Positions 1-53,421 of a DNA stretch of 53,421 bases are shown here, one piece after another; position 1 is the stretch's first letter; every line of letters begins with the position of its first letter. The translations under genes were made by a program, and so were the position numbers. The DNA comes from a virus (taxonomy: Duplodnaviria > Caudoviricetes). Below the pieces are notes generated by a model. The model did no database searches. It worked only from the letters and a program-made list of their open reading frames with translations, and had not been told where the DNA came from. The stretch is from the IMG/VR virus record IMGVR_UViG_3300013126_002137, positions 1 to 53,421 of that record; one strand, given 5' to 3'.

Positions 1-7
1 ATGGACG

Positions 8-448
8 GTGAAGGTGATAGTAAACAGAAAAGTCGTAGGTACAGTTTGCCTAATGATAGCGACCTTTCTGAACCCCCTAGGGTTCGACATATTGGTTTAC
101 AAACTGATGCAATTAACCAAAGATTACTGGAGTACAATGTACATTCTTTATGGATTAGCATTTGTATTCTTCTCGTTGTCGCACTTATTTTTTAGATTAA
201 AAAAAAGAGTTTTAGGAAATTTATTGGTAACAATAGCATTATTTTTAAACCCATTGGGTTATGATGTTGTTGTTTACGGTATTACATTATTAACAAATAA
301 TTATTGGATAACTATGACAATTATGTATGCATTAGCATTTGTTTTTTTCGGATTTTTTATGTACCTTTACAAAATAAATCCAATAACACTTATTAAACAA
401 CAAATTATTGGGTTACACAGAAAATTTTTAAAAAAAAAAGTACAATGA
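8..448 (+). CDS. Membrane protein with an internal tandem duplication
   Basis: Hydrophobic; two similar halves FLNPLGFDILVY...YWSTMYILYGLAFVFF and FLNPLGYDVVVY...YWITMTIMYALAFVFF; GTG start at the window edge, may be 5'-truncated. Confidence 0.75.
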   Translation: MKVIVNRKVVGTVCLMIATFLNPLGFDILVYKLMQLTKDYWSTMYILYGLAFVFFSLSHLFFRLKKRVLGNLLVTIALFLNPLGYDVVVYGITLLTNNYWITMTIMYALAFVFFGFFMYLYKINPITLIKQQIIGLHRKFLKKKVQ

Positions 449-858
449 AAACATTTGATGAACTTTTTGATGAGTTTTTTAACGAAAACGATAAAGGTAA
501 AAAAAGAGGTAGAAAACCAAAAACTAAAAATGATGAATTTGGTGATGAACTTAAAAACCTTATGAATACGTTATCAAATTTTAAACAAATAACCGATGCT
601 GATGAACAATTTGAAATTGATAATGAATTCGGTGAACCAGATAGAGTAGAATTTTTCAGAGATGAAGATTTATATTTTAAAAGGTCTGTTTGGGTAGTTG
701 AGGACAGTGAAGTAGTGAAATTAGAAGTATCTGACCAACCATTCGATATTGAAGAACCTAAATCATTGGAAGAATTATTACAAGATGCATTAGATAGTGA
801 GAACTATGAATTAGCAGCTGAAATAAGGGATGAAATGAATAAAAATAAAAAAAATTAA
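445..858 (+). CDS. Hypothetical protein with C-terminal UvrB/UvrC (UVR) motif
   Basis: LEELLQDALDSENYELAAEIRDEM fits the UVR coiled-coil motif. Confidence 0.75.
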   Translation: MKTFDELFDEFFNENDKGKKRGRKPKTKNDEFGDELKNLMNTLSNFKQITDADEQFEIDNEFGEPDRVEFFRDEDLYFKRSVWVVEDSEVVKLEVSDQPFDIEEPKSLEELLQDALDSENYELAAEIRDEMNKNKKN

Positions 859-876
859 AAAAAGTTGCAAAAAAAA

Positions 877-908
877 CTTGACAAATCGAAAAATAGTTTG
901 TACATTTG
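877..908 (+). promoter_or_regulatory. Bacteroidota primary-sigma promoter (-33 (T)TTG / -7 TAnnTTTG); representative of about 29 copies
   Basis: CTTG at 877-880, TACATTTG at 901-908. Other -7 boxes start at 1521, 3567, 5333, 7880, 11581, 15835, 20832, 26747, 28860, 31610, 33339, 35872, 37425, 38934, 41963, 44602, 45318, 45602, 46229, 46574, 47119, 48530, 49383, 50510, 51217, 51564, 52660 and 53403, all just upstream of + strand genes or RNAs. Confidence 0.9.
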
Positions 909-964
909 CAATATAAAATTAAACTTTTAGAAAAAACAATATATTTAAATAATACAAAAGCGAA

Positions 965-1054
965 ATGAAAACAATAGTTATGACATATCAACCGAAACAG
1001 TATACGCAAGGGAAACCTAGCGTGACGGGTGAGTCATATCTATTAAGTAACTAA
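965..1054 (+). CDS. Putative attenuator leader peptide MKTIVMTYQPKQYTQGKPSVTGESYLLSN (29 aa)
   Basis: Lies between the promoter (901) and a terminator (1080); its 3' end overlaps the predicted antiterminator; not in the ORF track. Confidence 0.7.
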   Translation: MKTIVMTYQPKQYTQGKPSVTGESYLLSN

Positions 1055-1086
1055 CAGAAATTTTAGTTATTGATATTTCAAGCCCG
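1026..1086 (+). promoter_or_regulatory. Predicted antiterminator hairpin
   Basis: CGGGT(1026-30)/GCCCG(1082-86), GAG/TTC, ATATC/GATAT, AGTAACTAA/TTAGTTATT; sequesters the 5' arm of the terminator. Confidence 0.65.
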
Positions 1087-1118
1087 ATTTCAGAAATGAT
1101 AATCGGGTTTTTTGTTTT
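1080..1118 (+). terminator. Intrinsic terminator upstream of the tRNA cluster
   Basis: AAGCCCGATT-TCA-GAAA-TGA-T-AATCGGGTTT followed by TTTGTTTT. Confidence 0.85.
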
Positions 1119-1175
1119 AGGTACCTATGCCTCCCAAAAAAATAGGAACGTTATTTGACATGTTGGTTTATTCAT

Positions 1176-1249
1176 AGAGTAGTAGAGGAATGGCTTATCT
1201 CGCTCGGTTTGGGACCGAGAGCATGTGGGTTCGAATCCCACCTATTCTA
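1176..1249 (+). tRNA. tRNA-Pro(TGG)
   Basis: Acceptor AGAGTAG/CTATTCT, anticodon arm CTCGG-TTTGGGA-CCGAG, T arm GTGGG-TTCGAAT-CCCAC; atypical A1-U72; no encoded CCA. Confidence 0.9.
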
Positions 1250-1306
1250 CGTCAGACTGTTATTAATTCATAGACCGTGAACAACGGAGCGTAGAATTAA
1301 CATTAA

Positions 1307-1394
1307 CTGGATGTGTAGTCAATTGGAAGACGACCCGTTTTGGAAACGGGAATGGGTGTAATGCCTTATGCTGGTTCGAGTCCAGTCATTCAGA
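1307..1394 (+). tRNA. tRNA with TGG (Pro) anticodon and a long variable arm
   Basis: Acceptor CTGGATG/CATTCAG, A73; CCCGT-TTTGGAA-ACGGG; 19-nt variable region; T arm GCTGG-TTCGAGT-CCAGT. Confidence 0.75.
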
Positions 1395-1404
1395 CAAAAT
1401 ATAA

Positions 1405-1477
1405 TGTCCTATGGTGTAATTGGCAACACGTCTGATTTTGAGTCAGAAGAGTCTAGGTTCGAGCCCTAGTGGGACAA
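1405..1477 (+). tRNA. tRNA-Gln(TTG)
   Basis: TGTCCTA/TGGGACA, TCTGA-TTTTGAG-TCAGA, CTAGG-TTCGAGC-CCTAG. Confidence 0.92.
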
Positions 1478-1542
1478 CAAAAAAAAAGATGAAAAACTTG
1501 CATATGTAAAAATTAGTTTGTACATTTGCAATATAATATTAA

Positions 1543-1608
1543 AAGATAGTTTCAGCAAATTAACTATACATCAAACTTTTATTTTGAACACGTAAGAAAA
1601 GCTATCTT
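1543..1608 (+). ncRNA. CAGCAA stem RNA carrying a Lys-like anticodon stem-loop
   Basis: Terminal stem AAGATAGTTT/AAGCTATCTT, then CAGCAA, internal hairpin TCAAA-CTTTTAT-TTTGA; first RNA after promoter 1521. Confidence 0.6.
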
Positions 1609-1615
1609 GTTATTT

Positions 1616-1697
1616 GGGGGTGCGCCAAAGTGGGAGAGTTGGGGCAGACTGTAAATCTGTTGCTTCGGCTGAGTAGGTTCGAATCCTACCACCCTCA
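1616..1697 (+). tRNA. tRNA-Tyr(GTA)
   Basis: GCAGA-CTGTAAA-TCTGT, variable arm GCTTCGGC, T arm GTAGG-TTCGAAT-CCTAC. Confidence 0.93.
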
Positions 1698-1706
1698 CTA
1701 AATTAT

Positions 1707-1779
1707 GCCTTTGTAGCTCAGCTGGTAGAGCAATTGATTTGTAATCAATAGGTCGTAGGTTCGAACCCTATCAAAGGCT
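1707..1779 (+). tRNA. tRNA-Thr(TGT)
   Basis: GCCTTTG/CAAAGGC, ATTGA-TTTGTAA-TCAAT. Confidence 0.95.
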
Positions 1780-1783
1780 CATG

Positions 1784-1864
1784 TGTTAATTAGGGTCGAG
1801 CCAGATTTTGCCACGATTAGCAACAGAAGAAAGAACCTAGAGCTGGCCGTGACTGTCTTTCTTC
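1784..1864 (+). ncRNA. Putative structured spacer RNA (two hairpins with complementary loops)
   Basis: Stems TGTTAAT/ATTAGCA and GAAGAAAGA/TCTTTCTTC; loop-loop complements TAGG/CCTA, GCCAG/CTGGC, CACG/CGTG. Confidence 0.45.
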
Positions 1865-1871
1865 GAAAAAT

Positions 1872-1944
1872 GCAGATATCGTATAATGGCTTATTATACT
1901 AGCCTTCCAAGCCTGGGATTTCAGTTCGATTCTGAATATCTGCT
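1872..1944 (+). tRNA. tRNA-Gly(TCC), anticodon stem with mismatches
   Basis: GCAGATA/TATCTGC, loop CTTCCAA; stem CTAGC/GCCTG has two mismatches. Confidence 0.8.
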
Positions 1945-1988
1945 CTCAGCCAGTTGTTATGTCTGGTGAAAATTAAAACATAACGAAT

Positions 1989-2061
1989 GCTGAAATAGCT
2001 CAATTGGTAGAGCACTTCACTAGTAATGAAGAGGTTATCAGTTCGATTCTGATTTTTAGCT
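1989..2061 (+). tRNA. tRNA-Thr(AGT)
   Basis: GCTGAAA/TTTTAGC, CTTCA-CTAGTAA-TGAAG; anticodon AGT at 2022-2024. Confidence 0.9.
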
Positions 2062-2120
2062 CAAAAAGAGGGGTAACTTGTGTGGGTGCCTCAAAGGACA
2101 GCTGCCTTACCACACTCTAT

Positions 2121-2192
2121 GCGAGAATAGCTCAGTGGTAGAGCGTTACCTTGCCAAGGTAAGGGTCGTGGGTTCGAATCCCATTTCTCGCT
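2121..2192 (+). tRNA. tRNA-Gly(GCC)
   Basis: GCGAGAA/TTCTCGC, TTACC-TTGCCAA-GGTAA, canonical T arm. Confidence 0.95.
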
Positions 2193-2197
2193 CAATA

Positions 2198-2296
2198 AGT
2201 AGGATACACGTGCAGTAATGTACGGATTACGCCAAATAACGGATAATTACCGTTTGATGAAGGGATATAAATGAGTGGTTCCCTTTAAGTCCTACT
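2198..2296 (+). ncRNA. Putative four-way-junction RNA
   Basis: Closing stem AGTAGGA/TCCTACT with hairpins CGTGCA-GTAA-TGTACG, AACGG/CCGTT and AAGGGA/TCCCTT. Confidence 0.45.
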
Positions 2297-2448
2297 GACG
2301 TTATTAAAAATATACTGGTTTTTGATACCGCTTTACCGTTAGGAAAATCCTTATAAGGGCTGAGATTTTATATCAAGCGTAGCAAACGGTCTTAGGAGAT
2401 TAACAGAATACAAAGGGGGTATGACGGATGCAGAGAGAGGCATATTAT

Positions 2449-2578
2449 GGGGGTGTTGAAATGTTAGATAAAATCACATTCTGCCTTTATGTTAAAAAGA
2501 ATGTTTGCAGCAAAAACAAATATTATTCACGCAAACTGTAAATTTGATAAAACGTTGGTGCAATTCCAGCCGCCCCCA
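2449..2578 (+). ncRNA. tRNA/tmRNA-like RNA with an internal CAGCAA stem and a Tyr-like anticodon loop
   Basis: Acceptor GGGGGTG/CGCCCCC-A, T arm GTTGG-TGCAATT-CCAGC, internal ACATTCT/AGAATGT stem followed by TTGCAGCAA, hairpin CAAA-CTGTAAA-TTTG. Confidence 0.65.
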
Positions 2579-2582
2579 CTAA

Positions 2583-2639
2583 GCATATTATAATATGCAA
2601 AAGACATAAAAAATAATATAAACGCATAATATAATATGC
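2583..2639. repeat. Two copies of the 16-bp palindrome GCATATTATAATATGC
   Basis: Perfect at 2583-2598, one mismatch at 2624-2639; partial copy GCATATTAT at 2440-2448. Confidence 0.8.
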
Positions 2640-2660
2640 AAATTTAAAAACTTTAAAATT

Positions 2661-2702
2661 ATGAAAACTTTTATCAACATTAAGCGAAAGAAAAAACGAT
2701 AA
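2661..2702 (+). CDS. Putative Lys-rich leader peptide MKTFINIKRKKKR
   Basis: ATG after an A/T-rich leader, 5 Lys codons, stop followed directly by hairpin 2703-2732 and then tRNA-Lys; not in the ORF track. Confidence 0.65.
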   Translation: MKTFINIKRKKKR

Positions 2703-2748
2703 GGCACTCGGCCTAAGCTGGTTACGAGTGTCAATAGGTAAACTATAA

Positions 2749-2820
2749 CCTCTCGTAGCAAACAAGTGTAGGCAACGGACTTTTAATCCGTGGGGTCTGG
2801 AGCGTTACCAGACGGGAGGA
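2749..2820 (+). tRNA. tRNA-Lys(TTT), atypical D and T loops
   Basis: CCTCTCG/CGGGAGG, ACGGA-CTTTTAA-TCCGT, T arm TCTGG-AGCGTTA-CCAGA. Confidence 0.85.
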
Positions 2821-2897
2821 CAATTTTAAATTAATTTTTAATTTTTTAATCTTTACAAGTTCGATTTTATATTTATATTTATAATAAAAATATATTT

Positions 2898-3503
2898 ATG
2901 AAAGAATGTCCGAAATGTAAAAAAAATCATGATAAAAATGGTAAATTTTGTTCTAGGTCATGTGCTAATAGTAGAACGTGGACTGATGAAGATAAAATAA
3001 AAAAATCAGAATCAGCTAAAAAATCAGAAAAAGTTATTTTAAGTAATCAGAATAAAAGTAATGAAATTTATACTAAAATAGCTGAAACAAAAAAGAAAAA
3101 ACATAAAGAAAAAATATTAAATTCAGAATATTCTGAATTAAGTTTTGAATCATTAAGGTTTAGAATTTTATATGAACAAGACTGTAAATGTAATCGTTGT
3201 GGTTTAAATGAATGGTTAGGTAAAGATATACCCTTAGAATTAGAACATAAAGATGGTAATCATTATAATAATCAAAGGGAAAATTTAGAATTGTTGTGTC
3301 CTAATTGTCACGCATTGACGGATACTTGGAGAGGTAGAAATAAAACTAAAACTAGATTAACAATATCTGATGAAGAACTATTTAATGCTTTGATGACTAA
3401 TGATTGGAATATGAGACAAGCTTTATTAGATGTTGGGTTATCAGCTAAAGGTGGTAATTATAAAAGATGTCATACTTTAAAACGAGAATTTGAAAATTTA
3501 TAA
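2898..3503 (+). CDS. HNH homing endonuclease with N-terminal zinc ribbon
   Basis: CPKC...FCSRSC; LELEHKDGNHYNNQRENLELLCPNCH. Confidence 0.9.
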   Translation: MKECPKCKKNHDKNGKFCSRSCANSRTWTDEDKIKKSESAKKSEKVILSNQNKSNEIYTKIAETKKKKHKEKILNSEYSELSFESLRFRILYEQDCKCNRCGLNEWLGKDIPLELEHKDGNHYNNQRENLELLCPNCHALTDTWRGRNKTKTRLTISDEELFNALMTNDWNMRQALLDVGLSAKGGNYKRCHTLKREFENL

Positions 3504-3517
3504 ACCAACATGATGTT

Positions 3518-3550
3518 AATGCACGATATTTGTCGTGCATTTTTTGTTTT
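3518..3550 (+). terminator. Intrinsic terminator
   Basis: AATGCACGA-TATTTG-TCGTGCATT plus T run. Confidence 0.8.
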
Positions 3551-3578
3551 ATTCAAAACTTATTATTACATTTGCATT

Positions 3579-3947
3579 ATGAAAAAAGAACAATATGCTA
3601 GATTAGTTGAACTCATTGGCAAAGAGAAAGCTGATGAGGTGAGAGAAAACTTTAATAAACATAAAGCAGAAAAGAAACAACAACAAGAAAAAGAAGCTAC
3701 CGAATTAAAAGAAATGGTTGATAAAATGATACCTAAAGCTGACTTAAAAGACGGTGTTTATTATAATGGTCATAGATGGAGAGGTAAACATGTTGCAATG
3801 TGGGATGGTGATAAGAAAGTATTTTTAACTATCAACTTTACAATGGGTAATTTCTTTTTGGAAGAATTAAATCACTTTGAAGATGTTGCTGAAACAAGAA
3901 TTGATGGGTTTATACCTTTTATTGAGATAGAAAAGTTTACTTTATAA
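3579..3947 (+). CDS. Hypothetical protein (probably leaderless mRNA)
   Basis: ATG 4 nt after the -7 box; the ORF-track start at 3510 overlaps the terminator and promoter. Confidence 0.75.
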   Translation: MKKEQYARLVELIGKEKADEVRENFNKHKAEKKQQQEKEATELKEMVDKMIPKADLKDGVYYNGHRWRGKHVAMWDGDKKVFLTINFTMGNFFLEELNHFEDVAETRIDGFIPFIEIEKFTL

Positions 3948-3979
3948 TATTTTTTGATATTTATTGGAAAAGAATAAAT

Positions 3980-5104
3980 ATGAAAGATTTACTTAAAATA
4001 TTATTAAGAGAAAACTTACTTAATGAGATTGATTGGCAAGGTAGATTCAGTGATGTGTCTAAAAAACCAATGAGTCATGATGAGGCTAAAGAATATTTAG
4101 CTAAAGTTGTTGGTAATTGCAAGTTAAAACCAGTACAAAGAGAGACAACACCTTTAGATAAACCATATATTCACTCAAAGAAAATACCACAAACACAAGA
4201 AGGTGAAATAGATATTGAAAGTTTTATATCTGATATAACAAAAATGCCAAAAGACATTCTTAGTGTTAATTCTAAAATGGAAAAGTCTAAGGATGATAAT
4301 AGTCTTTCAGTTAATATTGGTATTCCAGCATTGAGAGGTTTAGTGTATGATATCGATGAAAAGACTTTCTATATTGTAAACACATGCCCAGGTGCTGGTT
4401 CATGTGCCCTTATCTGTTATGCTAGAAGAGGTAGTTACGTTATGTTCCCAGATGTGTTCGTAAAACAGACCAGAATACTTAACTTATTATTGAATTACCC
4501 AGACAGATTTGAAAAGTTGTTACTTAGAGAATTAGAATCATTTGCCTTAAAAAACCCAGATAAAGAAATTCAGATGAGATGGAATGATGCTGGTGATTTT
4601 TTCACTACTGATTATTATGAAATAGCAACAAGAATAACCAAACAACTAAAATCTGAGGGTTATAATGTAAAATCATATGGTTATACTAAAATGGGTGATG
4701 TTGTTAATTTATCCGACCCAGATGTAACTATAAACTTCTCTGATGATGCTAATAAAAGAGAAACTAGTAAAATAAAAGATTTAAAAGGTGCTAAAAAATC
4801 AGTTATTGTCCCTAAAGACGTGTTTGATGACTTATTAGTTAAAGACGCTAAGAATAGAAATTACGAAACAAACGAAAAAGGTAAAGTAATGTTTATTGAT
4901 GGACAAAACGGGGTAAACGAATTAAAACGTAGATTAGCTAAAAAATATGATGTCGATGCTAGTACTATCGTGACTTATGATGAGTTATTAAAAATACCTA
5001 AAGGTGACGAACTAATGTATAGTGTTATTGTGATGCCTAAAGGTGATGGTGACGTAGGTGCGCAAAGAAATGATGTAAGGACTAGTTTCTTATTATTCCA
5101 TTAA
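3980..5104 (+). CDS. GP88-like Cys-motif (radical-SAM-like) phage protein
   Basis: TCPGAGSCALICYARRG and RWNDAGDF, YGYTK motifs. Confidence 0.7.
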   Translation: MKDLLKILLRENLLNEIDWQGRFSDVSKKPMSHDEAKEYLAKVVGNCKLKPVQRETTPLDKPYIHSKKIPQTQEGEIDIESFISDITKMPKDILSVNSKMEKSKDDNSLSVNIGIPALRGLVYDIDEKTFYIVNTCPGAGSCALICYARRGSYVMFPDVFVKQTRILNLLLNYPDRFEKLLLRELESFALKNPDKEIQMRWNDAGDFFTTDYYEIATRITKQLKSEGYNVKSYGYTKMGDVVNLSDPDVTINFSDDANKRETSKIKDLKGAKKSVIVPKDVFDDLLVKDAKNRNYETNEKGKVMFIDGQNGVNELKRRLAKKYDVDASTIVTYDELLKIPKGDELMYSVIVMPKGDGDVGAQRNDVRTSFLLFH

Positions 5105-5105
5105 C

Positions 5106-5133
5106 AAAAAAGGGGCGATTAAGCCCCTTTTTT
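5106..5133. terminator. Bidirectional intrinsic terminator
   Basis: AAAAAAGGGGC-GATTAA-GCCCCTTTTTT between convergent genes. Confidence 0.9.
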
Positions 5134-5136
5134 ATT

Positions 5137-5280
5137 TTACCCTTGACCAACGTATTTCTTTTTATAATTCTTAGATTTCTTAGAATTTGAATTCTTTTTC
5201 TTTGAATGTACGCCTGGTCTTTTTCTTTTTGGTTTAGCGATTCTAACGCTACTAGTTGATTGTTTGGTTGCTTTTGCCAT
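5137..5280 (-). CDS. Small basic protein (47 aa) ending KKKYVGQG
   Basis: MAKATKQSTSSVRIAKPKRKRPGVHSKKKNSNSKKSKNYKKKYVGQG; TATTTAT upstream on the - strand; converges on the terminator; not in the ORF track. Confidence 0.8.
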   Translation of the reverse strand: MAKATKQSTSSVRIAKPKRKRPGVHSKKKNSNSKKSKNYKKKYVGQG

Positions 5281-5355
5281 AATGATAACGTTTTTATGTT
5301 AATAAATACTTGATAAATTCGATTTTTTAATGTAAATTTGTTAAAAAGATTATCT

Positions 5356-5610
5356 ATGAAAAATTTAATTTATATTGATGTTGATACAGAAAGAGAAAAA
5401 CCTATATTAATTGGTAAGGGTGCTGAAGTTTCATCCCCTACAAATAAAGAGGAAGCACGTGATATGATTATCAACGATATAAGATGTGTTTGTGAAACAT
5501 TATGTATTCTTATTGAAGTTGCTGACCAAAATCAATATGCAAAAAAGGGTGAATTAATTACTGAATCAATTAAACAATTAACAAAAATGCTTATGTATGA
5601 TGAAAAATAA
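5356..5610 (+). CDS. Hypothetical protein
   Basis: ORF after promoter 5333; ATG at 5356 preferred. Confidence 0.7.
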   Translation: MKNLIYIDVDTEREKPILIGKGAEVSSPTNKEEARDMIINDIRCVCETLCILIEVADQNQYAKKGELITESIKQLTKMLMYDEK

Positions 5611-5633
5611 CATTTAGAATAATTTATTATGAG

Positions 5634-6140
5634 GTGGTTGAAATTGATATTACGGATGACCAAAGAAAAAGAGCAAAAGAGTTATATGAGTTTAACGTTT
5701 TAAAAGGTTCAGTAACTGAAGGTAAAGGAAATGAGGTGGGTGCATTAGGTGAGGTAATTGTTTGGGACCAATATAAAAAGAAAACAAAATATGTTGGTTC
5801 GTATGATTACGATATGATAATAAAAGGTAAAAAAGTTGATGTAAAAACAAAATTACAAAACATGGCACCACAGCCATATCACAGAGCAAATATTTTTGCA
5901 TACAATACTAGACAAAAATGTGATTACTATTGTTTTGTTGCTATTTTAAGTGATTTATCCAAAGGTTGGATAATCGGTTGGAAAGAGAAAGAAAAGTTCT
6001 TTAAAGAGGCTGAATTTCATAAAAAAGGTACTGTTGACAAGAAAGGTTCAGACCCTAATTGGACTTTTAAAGGAGATTGTTATTGTTTAGATAATTCTCA
6101 GTTAGAAACTAAAACTAAAAGGGAAAAACTAGATATTTAA
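5634..6140 (+). CDS. PD-(D/E)XK nuclease-like protein
   Basis: GALGE...YDYDM...VDVKTK pattern. Confidence 0.6.
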   Translation: MVEIDITDDQRKRAKELYEFNVLKGSVTEGKGNEVGALGEVIVWDQYKKKTKYVGSYDYDMIIKGKKVDVKTKLQNMAPQPYHRANIFAYNTRQKCDYYCFVAILSDLSKGWIIGWKEKEKFFKEAEFHKKGTVDKKGSDPNWTFKGDCYCLDNSQLETKTKREKLDI

Positions 6141-6651: not shown

Positions 6652-6856
6652 CGGTGGTGAACCAGTTGCTTTATGTAACAAATGTGGTGCAGTTATGTGT
6701 TATGTTAGTTGTAGAGAAGAAGATGGTGAATTTTGCAAAGTAAAAGAAATTAGAAATCTTAATGGGGTTAACTATATATCAACACCAATTGGACAAACAC
6801 CACCACCGTACTGTAACATATGTGAACCATTGTATAATTATTCTTTAAATGAATGA
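6617..6856 (+). CDS. Small Cys-rich protein
   Basis: CNKC and CNIC pairs. Confidence 0.65.
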   Translation: MKKKVNPIIKFNGGEPVALCNKCGAVMCYVSCREEDGEFCKVKEIRNLNGVNYISTPIGQTPPPYCNICEPLYNYSLNE

Positions 6857-6937
6857 ATTATGGATTATAACGTAAATAATATAAGAACATTGGCAGAATA
6901 TTTGTTCTGCTATGTTAATAGATACCCGAATTAGTAT

Positions 6938-7347: not shown

Positions 7348-7850
7348 TTAGTATTATAGTGGCCGCTTCTATTAATATGGTAATTGGTAAAAACAATCAA
7401 TTACCATGGCATATCCCTAGTGATTTAAAGTTGTTTAAAGAACTAACAATAGGTAAACGAATATACATGGGTAGGAAGTGTTGGGAATCACTTCCAGAGA
7501 AATTTAGACCACTACCAAATAGAGAAAATATTGTAATCACCAGAGATGAAAACTATAAAGCAAAAGGTGCTTTTGTTTTTAATGATTTAGAAAAAATAAA
7601 ACGTAGTTTTAAACCAACATCTAGCACTTATGGTTTAAGAGAACATTTTGTTATTGGTGGTGCTGAAATATATAAAGAGTTTTTCCCAATAGCTCAAAAA
7701 CTATATCTAACTGAAGTGTTAACCGAAATTGAAGGAGATACGTATTTAGAAGGTTTTAACCCAGATGAGTGGGAATTAATACACGAAAGTGATATCTATG
7801 AAGAAAACGATTTTAAATTTCGTTTCAAATCTTTTAAAAGAAAATCTTAA
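7344..7850 (+). CDS. folA: Dihydrofolate reductase
   Basis: IGKNNQLPWHIPSDL, MGRKCWESL...RPLPNRENIV, IGGAEIY. Confidence 0.97.
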   Translation: MISIIVAASINMVIGKNNQLPWHIPSDLKLFKELTIGKRIYMGRKCWESLPEKFRPLPNRENIVITRDENYKAKGAFVFNDLEKIKRSFKPTSSTYGLREHFVIGGAEIYKEFFPIAQKLYLTEVLTEIEGDTYLEGFNPDEWELIHESDIYEENDFKFRFKSFKRKS

Positions 7851-8215: not shown

Positions 8216-8788
8216 ATGGCTAATACAATGACAAATATTGTTAAAATCTTTGCTAATGATGAGGCAATAGACAAAATCAATGAAAGATTTGAAGTTGCTG
8301 GTGGTTACAGCGACATGGTAGAATTTGCAAAAGCGTTTTATGATGTACCAGAAATTATTGAAGGTGGGGTTAGTGTTTCATGGTCATTAGACAATATGGG
8401 TTCTAAATGGGTTTATATTGAGAATGATATTGATATGGATAGATGGAATATCGCATCTGCTTATTATTACCCACATGACTTTTTAAAACATCTATTCAAT
8501 TTAGTAACAGACATTGACCCAGAAGCATATATTGTAAACAAATATCAAGATGAAACTTATAGTCCATGTGGTGTTGTTGTTTATAAAAAAGATTCTGAGG
8601 GTGAACCTATGTGGTATGATTATGAAGAAGAATTTGAAGACCCAACTGATGACATGGATTGGGATGATGAGGGTTATGATGATGCTAGAGAAGATTTCAT
8701 ATATAAAATAGAAAATTTCCACGATGAACATGAAGAATATTGTATCAAAATGATTGATGAAGGGGATGGTAGAACGTTTGACGAATAA
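8216..8788 (+). CDS. Acidic hypothetical protein
   Basis: Operon-packed ORF. Confidence 0.75.
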   Translation: MANTMTNIVKIFANDEAIDKINERFEVAGGYSDMVEFAKAFYDVPEIIEGGVSVSWSLDNMGSKWVYIENDIDMDRWNIASAYYYPHDFLKHLFNLVTDIDPEAYIVNKYQDETYSPCGVVVYKKDSEGEPMWYDYEEEFEDPTDDMDWDDEGYDDAREDFIYKIENFHDEHEEYCIKMIDEGDGRTFDE

Positions 8789-8800
8789 AAAAATAAGAAA

Positions 8801-9196
8801 ATGAAATTAAAAGAAAGAATAAACGCAGATTTTATGGCAGCGTTTAAAGCAAAACAAATGGAAAAGAAAAACTTTTTGGGTGTAGTGAAAGGTGAAATCC
8901 AAAATGAAGTAGGTCGTTCTGGTAAAGACGATGATGAAACAGTTATGGGTATTTTAAAGAAAATTGAAAAGTCTTTGAAACAAACAAACACAGCTGAATC
9001 ATTGGCTGAGTTAGAATACATCAAACCTTATTTACCAGAATTGATGAATGAAACTACTATCCGTTCTATTGTTGAAACATTTAAGAATGATGGTATTACT
9101 GATGTTGGTAGAATGATGGGTGTGTTTAACAAAGAGTATAAATGTAAAGCAGATAATGCGGTAGTTTCTAAAATCGTTAAAGAAGTATTAGCATGA
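8801..9196 (+). CDS. yqeY: GatB/YqeY domain protein
   Basis: LKERINADFMAAFKAK...YLPELM...GRMMG...ADNAVVSKIVKEVL. Confidence 0.88.
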   Translation: MKLKERINADFMAAFKAKQMEKKNFLGVVKGEIQNEVGRSGKDDDETVMGILKKIEKSLKQTNTAESLAELEYIKPYLPELMNETTIRSIVETFKNDGITDVGRMMGVFNKEYKCKADNAVVSKIVKEVLA

Positions 9197-12957: not shown

Positions 12958-14577
12958 ATGCAATCAGAAACTAGAAAAATGAAAAGAAGTTTAGCACTTA
13001 AAGAAGTGATTAAAACTAGATTAGCAGAAGCCATCAAAAATAAAGATTGGTCTTCAATCGAAACATTAGAAGGTCTTATCACAAAAGCGTTAGATAAACC
13101 TAATAACCTTATCCTTATGGGTGATGCGTATAAATACTCACACCACAAATTCTATGAGGATAACACAACACTTATTTATTCATACATGGAATCACGTGGT
13201 GGTCGTTTCAATGAAACTGTATGGTATGGTCTTGAAATGTTCATTAAAGAATATTTAGAAGGTGTTGCAATCACACAAGAAGAATTAGATGAAGCATATG
13301 AGTACTTGGGCACAAAATATGGTGTATTTGGTCGTGAAGATGTCTTTGATAAATCTAAATTCCAATACATTATCGATGTTCATGGTGGTAAGTTACCAGT
13401 ACGTATCAAAGCAGTACCAGAGGGTACAGTTGTAGGTGTTAAAAACGTTCTTATGACTATTGAGAATACTGACCCTAATTGCTATTGGTTAACTAATTTC
13501 TTAGAAACAATTATGATGCAATTATGGTATCCAATTACAGTTGCAACATTGTCACGTGAAGTTAAGAAAATTGTTATTGAATACTACCAAAAAACATCAG
13601 CATTGCCAGAACATATTATGAACACTGTTATCGAGTTCGTATTGAATGACTTTGGTTTCAGAGGTGTATCATCTGTACAATCAGCTGGCTATGGTGGTTC
13701 AGCCCATTTAATTAACTTTATGGGTTCTGACACAACTGTTGCATCAAAACGTATTTGTGATTATTACAATACTGACACTGTATTTGGTTTATCAGTACCA
13801 GCAACTGAACACTCTATCATGACAATGAAAGGTGAAGCTGGTGAAGTTGAAATGATGAGAAGAACATTGGAGAAATATCCTACTGGTATTGTTGCTTGTG
13901 TGTCTGACTCTTACCATATCTTACGTGCATGTACTGAATATTGGGGAACTGAATTACGTGATTTGATTTTATCTCGTCCAGCAGAACCAGGTAACCAACT
14001 TGTTATTCGTCCAGATAGTGGTCACGTTGTCAATACTTTAAAAGAAGTGTTTGCGATTTTGTTTGACAAATTTGGTTATACGGTAAACGATAAAGGGTTC
14101 AAAGTATTACCACCACAAGTTCGTGTTATCCAAGGTGATGGTGTAAATATCAATTCAATTCGTGAGATTTACGAAGAATTATACAGATTAGGTATTTCTG
14201 CTGAGAATATAGTGTTTGGTATGGGTGGTAAATTGTTACAAGCTGACATCAATCGTGATACACAAAATTTTGCAACAAAAGCATGTTTTGCAATTGTTAA
14301 TGGTGAGCAACGTGATTTGGTTAAATCACCAACTGAAATTGATGAAAATGGTGAATTAAAACCATCATTCAAAAAATCTAAACAAGGTAGATTGAAATTG
14401 GTTAAAGATTACACAAATAATGTTTATAAAACAGTTACATCATTAGAAGATGAATATGAAAGAGCACATGATTCTTTGGTTACTGTTTTTGAAGATGGTA
14501 AATTGTTAACTGAAACACCATTTGAAACTATCAGAAGTAGAGCTAAAATTTATAATTTAAACTTAGAAATAGCATAA
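12958..14577 (+). CDS. nadV: Nicotinamide phosphoribosyltransferase
   Basis: DAYKYSH, DFGFRG, PATEHS, VSDSY, IRPDSG, QGDG. Confidence 0.95.
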   Translation: MQSETRKMKRSLALKEVIKTRLAEAIKNKDWSSIETLEGLITKALDKPNNLILMGDAYKYSHHKFYEDNTTLIYSYMESRGGRFNETVWYGLEMFIKEYLEGVAITQEELDEAYEYLGTKYGVFGREDVFDKSKFQYIIDVHGGKLPVRIKAVPEGTVVGVKNVLMTIENTDPNCYWLTNFLETIMMQLWYPITVATLSREVKKIVIEYYQKTSALPEHIMNTVIEFVLNDFGFRGVSSVQSAGYGGSAHLINFMGSDTTVASKRICDYYNTDTVFGLSVPATEHSIMTMKGEAGEVEMMRRTLEKYPTGIVACVSDSYHILRACTEYWGTELRDLILSRPAEPGNQLVIRPDSGHVVNTLKEVFAILFDKFGYTVNDKGFKVLPPQVRVIQGDGVNINSIREIYEELYRLGISAENIVFGMGGKLLQADINRDTQNFATKACFAIVNGEQRDLVKSPTEIDENGELKPSFKKSKQGRLKLVKDYTNNVYKTVTSLEDEYERAHDSLVTVFEDGKLLTETPFETIRSRAKIYNLNLEIA

Positions 14578-28606: not shown

Positions 28607-28828
28607 ATGATGATGAGATTAGATTTACATGGGGTAAAACACCACGAAGTTTGCAGACGAGTTGATGAGTTTATTTGGGAAACTATGCAGAAGAAAAAAA
28701 CACAAGCCCTTATTATAACTGGCAAATCAAGACCTATGAAGGAGTTAGTAAAGGAATGTTTAAAAGATTACGATGCTAAATGTTTTGATTTGTTTGATGG
28801 TGGGAGTTTAGTTGTTGATTTATTTTAA
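28607..28828 (+). CDS. Stand-alone Smr domain protein
   Basis: LDLHG...IITGKS. Confidence 0.8.
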   Translation: MMMRLDLHGVKHHEVCRRVDEFIWETMQKKKTQALIITGKSRPMKELVKECLKDYDAKCFDLFDGGSLVVDLF

Positions 28829-28891
28829 AAATAAATTTGCGAATTAAAAAAATAGTTAGTACATTTGTAGTATAAATTAAAAATAAAATAA

Positions 28892-33896: not shown

Positions 33897-35846
33897 ATGA
33901 TAAAAATAGGAGATATATTAGAGGGGAAAGTAAGTATGAACGCAAGTGGTTCGGCTTATTTAGTTAGTCCAGACTTGCCAAAAGACATTTATTTACACAA
34001 GTCTAAAACAAACAAAGCGTTACACTTAGATACTGTTAGAATAAAGGTAATTCCAGGCCAAGGCCGCTCAATGGAAGGTGAAGTTATAGAAATAGTTGAA
34101 AGATTTAGAACAGAATTTGTCGGAACTATTCAAATAAGTGAAAAGTTTGCTTTCTTTATTCCAGACTCAAATAAGTTAGTGGTTGATTTCTTTATCCCAC
34201 TAGGTAAAATGTTGGGTGCAACACATGGACAAAAAGTTGTTGCTCGTCTTACTGAATGGAAAGACAAAGCTAAAAACCCTAATGGTGAGATTGTTAGAGT
34301 AATTGGTAATTCTGGAGAACACGAAACAGAAATCCATTCAATTTTAGAAGAATATGGTTTACCTTATGATTTTCCAGATGATGTAATTGCTGAAGCTGAA
34401 GCGATATCAGAAGACATTCCACAATCAGAAATAGACAAACGCAGAGATATGCGTGATGTACTTACATTTACTATTGACCCACACGATGCAAAAGACTTTG
34501 ATGATGCATTGAGTGTTCAATGGGTTAACGGTGTGTTGGAAGTTGGTGTTCACATTGCTGATGTGTCACATTATATGCGACCAGACACAGAGCTGGATAG
34601 AGAAGCGTTTGCTAGAGGTACGAGTGTTTACCTAGTAGATAGATGTGTCGCAATGATACCAGAGAAGCTTTCTAACGGACTTTGTTCACTAAGACCACAC
34701 GAAGATAAGCTTTGCTTTTCAGTGGTGTTTAAAATCGACCAAAATGGCCATGTAATGGATGAATGGTTTGGTAGAACTGTAATACATTCTGACCATAGAT
34801 TTACATATGAAGAAGCACAATATGTGATTGAAAACCCTAATGTAATAAAAAAACCTAGAAGTATTGGCCCAAGCACAATTATTGACAAAGAGAATTTATG
34901 TGGTCAAGCTATTATTACTTTAGACAAATATGCTAAGAAAATGCGTAAGGTTAGGTTTAGTAAAGGTTCTATATCATTTGATAAACATGAAGTTAGATTC
35001 AAATTAGATGAGAACAACAAACCAGTAGATATCATATTCAAAGTGGGTAAGGATTCCAACAAACTTATTGAAGAATATATGTTATTGGCTAACAGACACG
35101 TTGCTCAGTTCATTAACCAAAAAGGTTTACCAATGGTTAACAGAGCTCATGATAAACCAGATGAAACTAAATTAGAAAGTCTTAAAGATTTCATCCATCA
35201 ATTTGGTTATGATATCAAAATAGATACACCAGAAGAAACAACAAGAACTTTGAATAAGTTGTTACGTGATGTTAGAGGGACTAACGAAGAAGATATGATT
35301 ACTAACTTGGTAGTTAGAACTATGCAGAAAGCTGATTATCGCACAAAGAACATAGGTCATTACGGTTTAGGTTTTAAACATTATACTCACTTTACAAGTC
35401 CAATCAGACGTTATCCAGATGTTATCATTCATAGATTGTTAGCGTTGTATTTAGATGACACCAGAAAGACTAACCCTAATATAGGTAAGTTAGATGCTAA
35501 ATGTGTTCACCTATCTGAAAGAGAAAAGAAAGCACAAAAAGCTGAAAGAGATAGTATCAAGTTCATGCAATGTGTTTATATGTCTGACAAGATAGGTAAA
35601 GTTTACAAAGGTATGGTTACTAGTGTAACTGAATATGGTGTCTTTATCACTATTGAGGAAAATGGTTGTGATTGTTTAATAAAATTAGCTAACATAAACG
35701 GAACTTGGATATCCGATGTTGAAAATTATAGACTGAAAGAACATAACACTGGAAGAATAATTCGTTTAGGTGATGAGGTTCATGTTGTCGTAACATCAGT
35801 TGACATAGAGAAAAAGAACATAAACCTTAATTTAATTAGCTTGTAG
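33897..35846 (+). CDS. rnr: Ribonuclease R
   Basis: TIDPHDAKDFDDA, HIADV, EEYMLLAN, HFTSPIRRYPD, C-terminal S1. Confidence 0.96.
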   Translation: MIKIGDILEGKVSMNASGSAYLVSPDLPKDIYLHKSKTNKALHLDTVRIKVIPGQGRSMEGEVIEIVERFRTEFVGTIQISEKFAFFIPDSNKLVVDFFIPLGKMLGATHGQKVVARLTEWKDKAKNPNGEIVRVIGNSGEHETEIHSILEEYGLPYDFPDDVIAEAEAISEDIPQSEIDKRRDMRDVLTFTIDPHDAKDFDDALSVQWVNGVLEVGVHIADVSHYMRPDTELDREAFARGTSVYLVDRCVAMIPEKLSNGLCSLRPHEDKLCFSVVFKIDQNGHVMDEWFGRTVIHSDHRFTYEEAQYVIENPNVIKKPRSIGPSTIIDKENLCGQAIITLDKYAKKMRKVRFSKGSISFDKHEVRFKLDENNKPVDIIFKVGKDSNKLIEEYMLLANRHVAQFINQKGLPMVNRAHDKPDETKLESLKDFIHQFGYDIKIDTPEETTRTLNKLLRDVRGTNEEDMITNLVVRTMQKADYRTKNIGHYGLGFKHYTHFTSPIRRYPDVIIHRLLALYLDDTRKTNPNIGKLDAKCVHLSEREKKAQKAERDSIKFMQCVYMSDKIGKVYKGMVTSVTEYGVFITIEENGCDCLIKLANINGTWISDVENYRLKEHNTGRIIRLGDEVHVVVTSVDIEKKNINLNLISL

Positions 35847-53202: not shown

Positions 53203-53391
53203 ATGGTTGAAATATTTTACATTATTATATTAGCTTTGTTTACGTTATTGGGTGCTTGGTATGCACCTAAAATGACATTGGCTATCTTTTTATTTGGTAT
53301 TGGTTTAAATCCAATAGCGGTAATTGTTATGATTATGAGTTTCATGACAGAAATTTCTATAAAATTTGATAAAAAAAACTTGACAAATTAA
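53203..53391 (+). CDS. Small membrane protein
   Basis: Hydrophobic ORF. Confidence 0.6.
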   Translation: MVEIFYIIILALFTLLGAWYAPKMTLAIFLFGIGLNPIAVIVMIMSFMTEISIKFDKKNLTN

Positions 53392-53421
53392 AAATAATGT
53401 TGTACATTTGTATTATAACGG

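What the first reader, a model, noticed from the sequence alone, without database searches (positions are those of the whole stretch)
877..1477. Leader-peptide attenuator whose sensor codons match the phage tRNA cluster it precedes
Seen: promoter (901), then 29-codon ORF 965-1054, then a strong terminator 1080-1118, then the tRNAs. A mutually exclusive hairpin 1026-1086 takes up the terminator 5' arm, and its own 5' strand lies in the last leader codons. Leader residues 7-18 (TYQPKQYTQGKP) are 12 consecutive residues drawn only from Pro, Gln, Tyr, Thr, Gly and Lys, exactly the six isotypes in the cluster, and use varied synonymous codons (CCG/CCT, CAA/CAG, ACA/ACG, GGG). Established: this is the trp/his attenuator geometry (stalling frees the antiterminator; reaching the stop lets the terminator form). 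Inference: the phage expresses replacement tRNAs only when host tRNAs are depleted, for example by anticodon-nuclease defences. I know of no description of attenuation controlling phage tRNA genes. Caveat: a second promoter at 1521 can drive Tyr onward independently, so direct control is firmest for Pro, Pro and Gln. A boxA-like GTTATTTGACA at 1150-1160 may add processive antitermination.
Basis: partly seen in the sequence, partly recalled or inferred. Interest (0 to 1): 0.92.

Follow-up and report, generated by a model that had tools for sequence, protein, structure and literature searches.

The report
Leader-peptide attenuator gating phage tRNA genes
A short translated leader and an on/off RNA switch sit in front of this phage's tRNA genes, and the leader is built from the codons that those same tRNAs read, so the phage appears to make more tRNA only when decoding of those codons slows down.

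Summary
Comparison with relatives strongly supports the interpretation.

Window 878-1118 holds a promoter, a 29-codon ORF (965-1054), a terminator (1081-1118), an antiterminator (1026-1086) and a sensor-to-region-2 hairpin (973-1044). This is the four-region trp/his geometry.

I collected 34 distinct leader-terminator units from related phage contigs. They fall into four paralogous classes, each in front of a different tRNA cluster. In each class, 59-100% of leader residues 4-20 come from the isotypes of its own cluster and 0-29% from the other clusters' sets.

Two more phages use the same design with other tRNA groupings: a 642-kb uncultured phage (LR756502.1) and the cultured Cellulophaga phage phi4:1.

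The antiterminator helix covaries with the terminator arm through changes inside the ORF, some of them synonymous. In the window, 1 of 50,281 twelve-residue windows is drawn wholly from the six isotypes, and it is the leader.

No experiment exists and the RNA-library hints are weak. Extra promoters lie downstream of the terminators. The anticodon-nuclease trigger and the boxA reading are untested. Eight literature searches found no description.

Verdict: a new variant of ribosome-mediated attenuation, of high interest.

The parts
878..908 (+). Promoter P1: -33 element 878-883 and -7 box 901-908, of the two-box type I recall for Bacteroidota
   Evidence: The same promoter type precedes every leader unit in relatives. 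The start of transcription (about 915) is inferred, not mapped.
965..1054 (+). Leader ORF, 29 codons plus stop
   Evidence: It is conserved as an ORF in 20 distinct relatives, with in-frame indels and synonymous changes. It matches no Pfam or PHROGs family.
983..1018 (+). Sensor block: codons 7-18, all for Pro, Gln, Tyr, Thr, Gly or Lys
   Evidence: Its codons are rare in the phage's own genes: Pro CCG is 60% in leaders against 4% in genes, and Gly non-GGT is 91% against 26%.
973..1044 (+). Region 1:2 hairpin (anti-antiterminator). Codons 4-10 pair with codons 21-27, enclosing a small hairpin at 1003-1024
   Evidence: -23.3 kcal/mol, z -5.1. In nascent transcripts, region 2 pairs with the sensor block in 34 of 34 units (no shuffle control).
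1026..1086 (+). Antiterminator domain (region 2:3). Outer helix 1026-1030 with 1082-1086, middle helix 1036-1040 with 1071-1075, and an inner hairpin 1046-1070 that holds the stop codon
   Evidence: -16.6 kcal/mol. The outer helix covaries in relatives.
1080..1118 (+). Intrinsic terminator (region 3:4): hairpin 1080-1110, T-run 1108-1113 and 1115-1118
   Evidence: -14.2 kcal/mol. A terminator is kept in 34 of 34 units. One metatranscriptome fragment ends at 1115 (a weak hint).
1124..1170 (+). Small hairpin after the terminator (1124-1128 with 1142-1146) and a conserved 21-nt element at 1150-1170 with a -33-like hexamer. Function unknown
   Evidence: Covariation of the hairpin was read by eye only. 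The fold of 1120-1175 is not better than shuffles (z +0.9).
1176..1478 (+). tRNA-Pro(UGG), an 89-nt Pro-like tRNA, and tRNA-Gln(UUG). These genes lie directly behind the attenuator
1498..1528 (+). Second promoter P2, with no leader behind it
   Evidence: It is conserved between Gln and Tyr in relatives.
1616..2821 (+). tRNA-Tyr, Thr, Gly, Thr, Gly and Lys, the rest of the cluster. They can be reached by P1 read-through and by P2
   Evidence: No terminator-like site was found on the + strand between 1119 and 3517.

Best explanation
This is a ribosome-mediated transcription attenuator that gates a phage tRNA operon.

Transcription starts at P1, and a ribosome translates the 29-codon leader. Codons 7-18 are a sensor block made only of codons read by the six tRNA isotypes encoded downstream.

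When those aminoacyl-tRNAs are plentiful, the ribosome runs to the stop codon. That codon lies inside the antiterminator domain, so the domain cannot form or is melted. The terminator folds and transcription stops at about 1113-1118.

When decoding of any sensor codon is slow, the ribosome stalls on region 1. Region 2 (1026-1044) is then free to pair with the 5' arm of the terminator as soon as that arm is made. The terminator cannot form, and RNA polymerase reads on into the tRNA genes.

The result is a negative feedback loop that matches tRNA output to decoding demand.

The window's unit is one of a set. Related phages split their tRNA genes into several clusters, each behind its own leader with its own matching codon block.

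Shown here: the sequence elements, their conservation, the coding signature, helix covariation, and leader composition tracking tRNA content. Inferred: translation of the leader, coupling of ribosome and polymerase, the direction of the switch, and the physiological trigger.
For: (1) Anatomy in the window.

(2) The ORF is under coding selection. Among 20 distinct sequences all indels are in frame and there are 41 synonymous codon varieties. In the 12 sensor columns listed, every residue seen belongs to the six-isotype set, and the exchanges are chemically unlike (for example Gln/Thr, Pro/Lys/Gly, Gln/Tyr). So set membership is kept rather than peptide chemistry.

(3) Every tRNA found behind the 20 of 21 loci that held any belongs to the same six isotypes, in varied order and number.

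(4) Composition tracks content. Among 30 distinct peptides in four classes, the own-set share of residues 4-20 is 0.59-1.00 and the other-set share 0-0.29. Background set frequencies are 0.16-0.30.

(5) LR756502.1 and phi4:1 show the same design with other groupings.

(6) Empirical null in the window: 1 of 50,281 windows.

(7) Antiterminator. The terminator's 5' arm pairs with ORF codons 19-26 in 34 of 34 truncated transcripts with a ribosome mask at codon 8, and in 31 of 34 without a mask. The best Watson-Crick complement to the arm lies at codons 17-23 in 31 of 34 units. In 21 of 34 units, 5% or fewer of the shuffles matched that run. On a MAFFT alignment of 19 sequences the outer helix is 91% paired, with both-side changes at four pairs: CG 10 / UA 6; UA 10 / CG 8; GC 17 / AU 1; UA 8 / CG 4. 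None of 500 shuffles reached the covariation score, and sliding the partner drops pairing to 24-45%.

(8) Region 1:2 pairing appears in 34 of 34 nascent transcripts.

(9) Terminators are kept in 34 of 34 units, at -10.9 to -18 kcal/mol.

(10) Weak RNA hints. One RNA-library contig spans 967-1171 across the terminator. One fragment in a metatranscriptome library covers 950-1115 and ends in the T-run.
Against: No experiment exists, and the RNA data are assembled contigs of relatives at low depth.

Promoters lie downstream of terminators: P2 at 1498-1528 here, and two in the Phe/Glu/Asp/Ala unit of a relative. A conserved promoter-like element sits at 1150-1170. So tRNAs can be made without passing the attenuator.

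The window's own outer 2:3 helix is the weakest of its class, with 4 Watson-Crick pairs and 1 G-U pair. Its best Watson-Crick complement to the arm lies elsewhere.

With a simple ribosome mask at the stop codon, the outer helix still forms in about 20 of 34 units. Termination after full translation therefore rests on a steric and kinetic argument.

Without a mask, 31 of 34 truncated transcripts prefer the antiterminator at equilibrium. The state without translation may therefore be read-through, unlike trp.

The first three residues are similar across classes, which hints at a further constraint.

Coupling of transcription and translation in Bacteroidota is not established, as far as I recall.
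Confidence: 0.8

Rival explanations
1. It is an attenuator, but it senses general translation capacity (any slowing or loss of ribosomes on the leader) rather than the six isotypes specifically. On this view the codon match is a secondary feature.
For: Without a ribosome mask, 31 of 34 truncated transcripts fold into the antiterminator. Failure to translate at all would therefore also give read-through.
Against: It does not explain why each of four, five and three leaders carries the codons of its own cluster. It also does not explain why substitutions stay within the set.
Confidence: 0.1
2. The ORF is an independent small-protein gene with its own promoter and terminator. The tRNAs are made from other promoters, and the alternative pairing is incidental.
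For: The ORF is conserved and its first residues are similar across classes. Promoters exist downstream.
Against: Residue exchanges are chemically unlike but stay within the set. Distant members keep the composition, not the order. The ORF segment covaries with the terminator arm, partly through synonymous changes. There is no protein family match.
Confidence: 0.04
3. It is a nascent-peptide arrest leader, like tnaC or erm leaders. The peptide sequence itself stalls the ribosome in response to a small molecule.
For: Part of the block is well conserved within the Pro class.
Against: The order of residues is rearranged in distant members while composition is kept (L056 and L121). The four classes have unrelated blocks.
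Confidence: 0.03
4. It is a plain terminator or insulator between the upstream gene and the tRNA cluster, and the ORF is a chance frame.
For: The terminator lies 220-260 nt after the stop of the upstream gene.
Against: A promoter sits between the upstream gene and the terminator. The ORF is conserved in 34 of 34 units. The composition statistics speak against chance.
Confidence: 0.03

Closest known systems
Leader-peptide transcription attenuators of amino-acid operons in Proteobacteria (trp, his, leu, thr, ilvGMEDA, pheA); recalled knowledge
   Same: A short ORF directly behind the promoter carries a block of regulatory codons. Four regions form 1:2, 2:3 and 3:4 pairings. An intrinsic terminator lies ahead of the regulated genes. 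Several amino acids are sensed at once, as in thr and ilv.
   Different: The regulated genes are tRNAs, not biosynthetic enzymes. Three to ten isotypes are sensed per leader. The system is modular, with several leaders per genome that partition the tRNA set. It is carried by phages with Bacteroidota-type promoters. The stop codon lies inside the antiterminator domain, and the equilibrium fold without a ribosome often favours the antiterminator.
pheST attenuator of E. coli (phenylalanyl-tRNA synthetase operon); recalled
   Same: A translation-apparatus gene is controlled by a leader with codons of the cognate amino acid.
   Different: It has one amino acid and its product is a synthetase. Here the product is the decoder itself, which gives direct feedback on tRNA supply.
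T-box riboswitches; recalled
   Same: They are transcription antitermination switches that report on tRNA status and regulate translation-related genes.
   Different: A T-box binds uncharged tRNA directly and needs no ribosome or ORF. No T-box or other Rfam family matched 877-1175.
tRNA clusters of other phages (T4, T5, mycobacteriophages) and current views of phage tRNA function
   Same: They are clustered phage tRNA genes thought to offset codon-usage differences or tRNA-targeting defences (abstracts listed: PMC10264068, PMC11555353).
   Different: In the listing those papers show 0 occurrences of 'leader peptide'. No attenuator control of phage tRNA genes was found in eight searches.

Membership tests
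Ribosome-mediated (leader-peptide) transcription attenuator | Short ORF directly downstream of a promoter and upstream of the regulated genes | tested here: met
   Promoter 878-908 and ORF 965-1054. The ORF is conserved in 34 of 34 units.
Ribosome-mediated (leader-peptide) transcription attenuator | Leader enriched in codons that report on the regulated product | tested here: met
   The window has a run of 12 codons from the six isotypes, 1 of 50,281 windows. The own-set share is 0.59-1.00 against 0-0.29 for other sets in 30 peptides.
Ribosome-mediated (leader-peptide) transcription attenuator | Intrinsic terminator between the leader and the regulated genes | tested here: met
   1080-1118 folds at -14.2 kcal/mol, z -4.1. 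A terminator is kept in 34 of 34 units.
Ribosome-mediated (leader-peptide) transcription attenuator | Antiterminator mutually exclusive with the terminator, supported by covariation | tested here: met
   Four pairs show changes on both sides, and 0 of 500 shuffles reach the covariation score.
Ribosome-mediated (leader-peptide) transcription attenuator | Region 1:2 pairing that holds region 2 unless a ribosome sits on the sensor codons | tested here: inconclusive
   It is strong in the window, at -23.3 kcal/mol and z -5.1. It is present in 34 of 34 nascent-transcript folds, but without a shuffle control. At equilibrium only 3 of 34 truncated transcripts keep it.
Ribosome-mediated (leader-peptide) transcription attenuator | Read-through rises when the ribosome stalls at the sensor codons | not testable with these tools
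   This needs reporter, Term-seq or Ribo-seq experiments. Only weak contig hints are available.
T-box riboswitch | Match to the T-box covariance model, with specifier loop and T-box sequence | tested here: not met
   The Rfam search of 1-6000 at E up to 1 gave no match in 877-1175.
   Only the conservation of 1150-1170 was seen. Its hexamer looks like the -33 element of the phage's own promoters.

The most novel reading that the evidence does not exclude
Phages of Bacteroidota, from 146-kb cultured Cellulophaga phages to 640-kb megaphages, run a modular supply-and-demand control of their own tRNA sets. Each tRNA cluster sits behind a translated leader whose codon block lists the isotypes of that cluster. 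The decoding speed of those codons therefore sets transcription of the matching tRNA genes. This would be the first case of leader-peptide attenuation controlling tRNA genes. It would give a built-in reporter of which tRNAs limit translation during infection, whether through host tRNA loss, defence nucleases or codon demand.
Probability: 0.72. Interest if true: 0.92.

Novelty: new variant of a known kind. Interest (0 to 1): 0.9.

Why it matters
Why phages carry tRNA genes has been debated for decades; the current views are codon compensation and escape from tRNA-targeting defences (abstracts of PMC10264068 and PMC11555353, listed).

An attenuator whose sensor codons match the downstream tRNAs would mean that the phage measures decoding of exactly those codons and adjusts tRNA synthesis to it. 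That makes the limiting-tRNA question directly testable.

It would extend classical attenuation to a new class of regulated genes (the decoders themselves), to phages, and to Bacteroidota. It would also give a simple sequence rule for finding such units: leader composition equals cluster isotypes.

The design also occurs in a cultured phage-host pair, Cellulophaga baltica and phage phi4:1, so experiments are feasible.

Tried and rejected
my degenerate pattern was mis-specified and missed the known loci. Most of its 46 hits were chance, although four (L034, L036, L051, L052) later proved to be real leaders.

no Rfam family matched in 877-1175.

the 29-residue peptide matched no PHROGs or Pfam family.

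the sequencing runs are held as contigs only, mostly of relatives, at depth 2-7 over the leader. They cannot give transcript ends or levels. I keep only two weak hints from them and draw nothing about habitat.

I stopped that step. The pairing of those five leaders with their terminators is therefore untested. Their composition counts are my hand counts: 9, 8, 5 (11 with the next cluster), 8 and 10 of 17 residues.

boxA reading: nothing tested supports it. The fold of 1120-1175 is no better than shuffles.

The small-protein reading is rejected for the reasons given under rival explanations.

I did not use structure prediction, complex prediction or the large protein searches, because a 29-residue leader gives them nothing to work on.

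Supplementary files of papers were closed. Supplementary tables of PMC7162821 on tRNAs were not seen.

Full report
WHAT IS IN THE WINDOW

The window is a 53,421-base virus record, estimated 15% complete. Its G+C content is 30.8%.

At 878-908 lies a promoter, with a -33 element at 878-883 and a -7 box at 901-908. I recall this two-box type as the Bacteroidota consensus; no call tested that. A 23-nt stretch covering the -7 box (894-916) recurs exactly at 1514-1536. A similar stretch with three mismatches lies at 28853-28875. None of 100 shuffles gave any match. A further copy of the promoter region sits at 53361-53418 and is cut by the window end.

Behind the first promoter come these elements:
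- a 29-codon ORF at 965-1054;
- a hairpin with a T-run at 1080-1118;
- nine tRNA genes at 1176-2821, of six isotypes only: Pro, Gln, Tyr, Thr, Gly and Lys.

RNA 915-1125 folds at -49.4 kcal/mol, z -5.4, with 0 of 200 shuffles as good. Folded one by one:
- terminator 1080-1118: -14.2 kcal/mol, z -4.1;
- hairpin 973-1044, which pairs codons 4-10 with codons 21-27: -23.3 kcal/mol, z -5.1.

The window therefore holds all four regions of the classical attenuator. The simple terminator scan does not list 1080-1118, probably because of the bulge and its loop rule. Rfam has no match in 877-1175.

IS THE COMPOSITION MORE THAN CHANCE?

Leader residues 7-18 all come from the six isotypes. I took the isotype set from ARAGORN's output, not by hand. 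Of the 273 ATG-started ORFs of 20-60 codons in all six frames of the window, the leader has a run of 12 and the next best has 6. Of 50,281 stop-free 12-residue windows, one is wholly in the set, and it is this one. The six residues make up 30% of the long ORFs of the window.

RELATIVES OF THE SAME UNIT

A search with the neighbouring protein and DNA pattern scans of viral and metagenome contigs gave homologous units. There are 20 distinct sequences of the Pro-first class.

The ORF is always open, and all indels are in frame. There are 41 synonymous codon varieties against 69 amino-acid varieties. In the 12 sensor columns listed, every residue seen belongs to the six-isotype set. The exchanges are chemically unlike: Gln/Thr, Pro/Lys/Gly, Gln/Tyr, Thr/Pro and Lys/Gln/Thr. 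Two distant members, L056 and L121, keep the composition in runs of 17 residues but not the order. What is conserved is membership in the set, not a peptide motif. A sensor of codons predicts this; a functional peptide does not.

Of the 21 loci examined, 20 held tRNAs downstream, and every tRNA found belongs to the same six isotypes, in varying number and order.

The leader also prefers codons that are rare in the phage's own genes:
- Pro CCG: 60% in leaders against 4% in genes;
- Thr ACG: 30% against 6%;
- Gly codons other than GGT: 91% against 26%.
This may sharpen sensitivity, serve the RNA helices, or both. I cannot tell which.

THE DECISIVE TEST: DOES LEADER COMPOSITION TRACK TRNA CONTENT?

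The 86-kb relative G002 carries 34 tRNA matches in several clusters. Three further clusters there each sit behind the same promoter type, their own short ORF and their own terminator. A promoter-pattern scan added more relatives.

In all I hold 34 distinct leader-terminator units (30 distinct peptides) in four classes. Two short false positives of 18 and 19 residues were dropped. The classes are:
- one ahead of His, Trp, Ser, Ile, Asn and Arg tRNAs;
- one ahead of Cys, Val and Leu;
- one ahead of Phe, Glu, Asp and Ala;
- the window's class.

The share of leader residues 4-20 drawn from the unit's own cluster set is 0.59-1.00. For the three other sets it is 0-0.29. Background set frequencies are 0.16-0.30.

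The design recurs with different partitions in two named phages.
- In the 642-kb uncultured phage LR756502.1, five leaders within a 30-kb stretch precede Phe/His/Lys, Arg/Ser, Glu/Tyr, Ile/Gly/Ala and Asn/Leu clusters. By my hand count (11 if the next cluster is included), 8 and 10 of their 17 residues 4-20 are in the own-cluster set.
- In cultured Cellulophaga phage phi4:1, three leaders partition 22 tRNAs. One unannotated 22-codon ORF has 11 consecutive residues from Pro, Glu, Gln, His, Leu and Arg, and precedes exactly those tRNAs. Another has 10 consecutive residues from Tyr, Ser, Asn, Trp and Phe, and precedes exactly those. The middle one overlaps an annotated hypothetical gene whose annotated start lies inside the promoter.

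I did not rerun it.

RNA SWITCH

Terminators are kept in 34 of 34 units, at -10.9 to about -18 kcal/mol.

I folded transcripts cut just before the terminator's 3' arm. With a ribosome-sized mask at codon 8, the 5' arm pairs with ORF codons 19-26, directly after the sensor block, in 34 of 34 units. Without a mask it does so in 31 of 34; the exceptions are the window, L055 and L106, where the 1:2 hairpin wins.

I defined the arm from the terminator alone. Its best Watson-Crick complement upstream lies at codons 17-23 in 31 of 34 units. The exceptions are two Cys-class units and the window. In 21 of 34 units, 5% or fewer of the shuffles matched that run.

On a plain MAFFT alignment of 19 Pro-class sequences, taken with 6-nt flanks, the outer helix is 91% paired. 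Four pairs change on both sides:
- CG 10 / UA 6;
- UA 10 / CG 8;
- GC 17 / AU 1;
- UA 8 / CG 4.
None of 500 shuffles reaches the covariation score. Sliding the partner by 1-3 columns drops pairing from 84% to 24-45%. I chose the region from folds, so pairing percentages lean towards the structure. The both-side changes do not. The changes on the ORF side are partly synonymous, as in the Thr-Gly codon pair.

In nascent transcripts that end at the stop codon, region 2 pairs with sensor codons 5-13 in 34 of 34 units. That count has no shuffle control.

MECHANISM

A ribosome stalled on the sensor block occupies region 1. Region 2 is then free, and it captures the terminator's 5' arm as soon as the arm emerges, so polymerase reads through.

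A ribosome that reaches the stop codon sits inside the antiterminator domain; the stop lies 21-34 nt before the arm. It blocks the domain's inner helices, and the local terminator hairpin then forms.

With a simple mask at the stop, the outer helix still forms in about 20 of 34 units. That last step is therefore a steric and kinetic inference. Direction, coupling and trigger are all inferred.

The trigger could be host tRNA loss, defence nucleases, or simply the codon demand of an AT-rich phage. The sensor reads charged tRNA, so amino-acid starvation would also open it.

LIMITS

P2 (1498-1528), which has no leader, can drive Tyr to Lys on its own. The Phe/Glu/Asp/Ala unit of G002 has two promoter-like sites after its terminator. 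The conserved element at 1150-1170 carries a -33-like hexamer. The attenuator is therefore one input among several.

No terminator-like site lies on the + strand between 1119 and 3517. P1 read-through can therefore cover all nine tRNAs.

The RNA evidence is weak. In coded RNA libraries, one contig spans 967-1171 across the terminator. One 166-nt fragment covers 950-1115, ends in the T-run, and is flanked by what I recall as adapter letters.

KNOWN OR NEW?

Eight full-text searches found no description of leader-peptide or attenuator control of tRNA genes, in phages or elsewhere. The huge-phage paper PMC7162821 has 0 occurrences of 'attenuat', 'leader' or 'terminator' in its main text (find mode only; its supplements were not seen). 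The search library lacks most subscription journals, so absence from print is not proven.

I file this as a new variant of ribosome-mediated attenuation. The machinery is the same, but the regulated genes are a new class, the layout is modular and multi-isotype, and the carrier is a phage.

Noticed in passing
window 1307-1395: The second 'tRNA-Pro(UGG)' is 89 nt long, with a long extra arm, and scores only 33 bits against the Rfam tRNA model. Relatives have a normal 74-75-nt Pro gene there. It may be a decaying or unusual tRNA.
   Followed up: no
window 2194-2748: About 550 nt between tRNA-Gly and tRNA-Lys hold no ORF over 37 codons on the + strand and no Rfam match. The same gap varies from about 300 to 1150 nt in relatives.
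   Followed up: no
window 2898-3503; L004 about 4907 onward; L108 2281-2957: Endonuclease-like ORFs sit inside the tRNA clusters. In the relative G002 a tRNA fragment lies next to one, which suggests mobile insertions into tRNA genes. The window ORF has no Pfam match.
   Followed up: partly
window 53361-53418: A third copy of the leader-type promoter region (85% identical over 57 nt) lies at the very end of the window. Whatever it drives is cut off.
   Followed up: no
window 33897-35846 and 12958-14577: The phage encodes an RNase R/II-like protein (RNB, cold-shock and S1 domains) and a nicotinamide phosphoribosyltransferase. The nearest public relatives of the RNase are the uncultured 635-642-kb phages LR745206.1 and LR756502.1, at 47-48% identity.
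   Followed up: partly
window 1124-1170: A small hairpin follows the terminator. Its stem changes on both sides in relatives, by eye. After it comes a 21-nt element conserved in 11 loci. Function unknown.
   Followed up: partly
L118 (both leader units, minus strand): One relative carries two leader-terminator units of the His/Trp/Ser/Ile/Asn/Arg class in tandem, separated by a tRNA-His gene.
   Followed up: no
L135 (NC_021788.1) 5867-5935, 6791-6910, 8573-8671: In Cellulophaga phage phi4:1 two of the three leader ORFs are not annotated. The third is annotated with a start codon that lies in the promoter. A nearby annotated 33-codon gene (8919-9020) is not the leader.
   Followed up: partly
L109 8705-8776 (G002 28705-28776): ARAGORN reports a tRNA with a four-base anticodon inside the Phe/Glu/Asp/Ala cluster of a relative. 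Another such call lies in G001 at 7442-7520.
   Followed up: no
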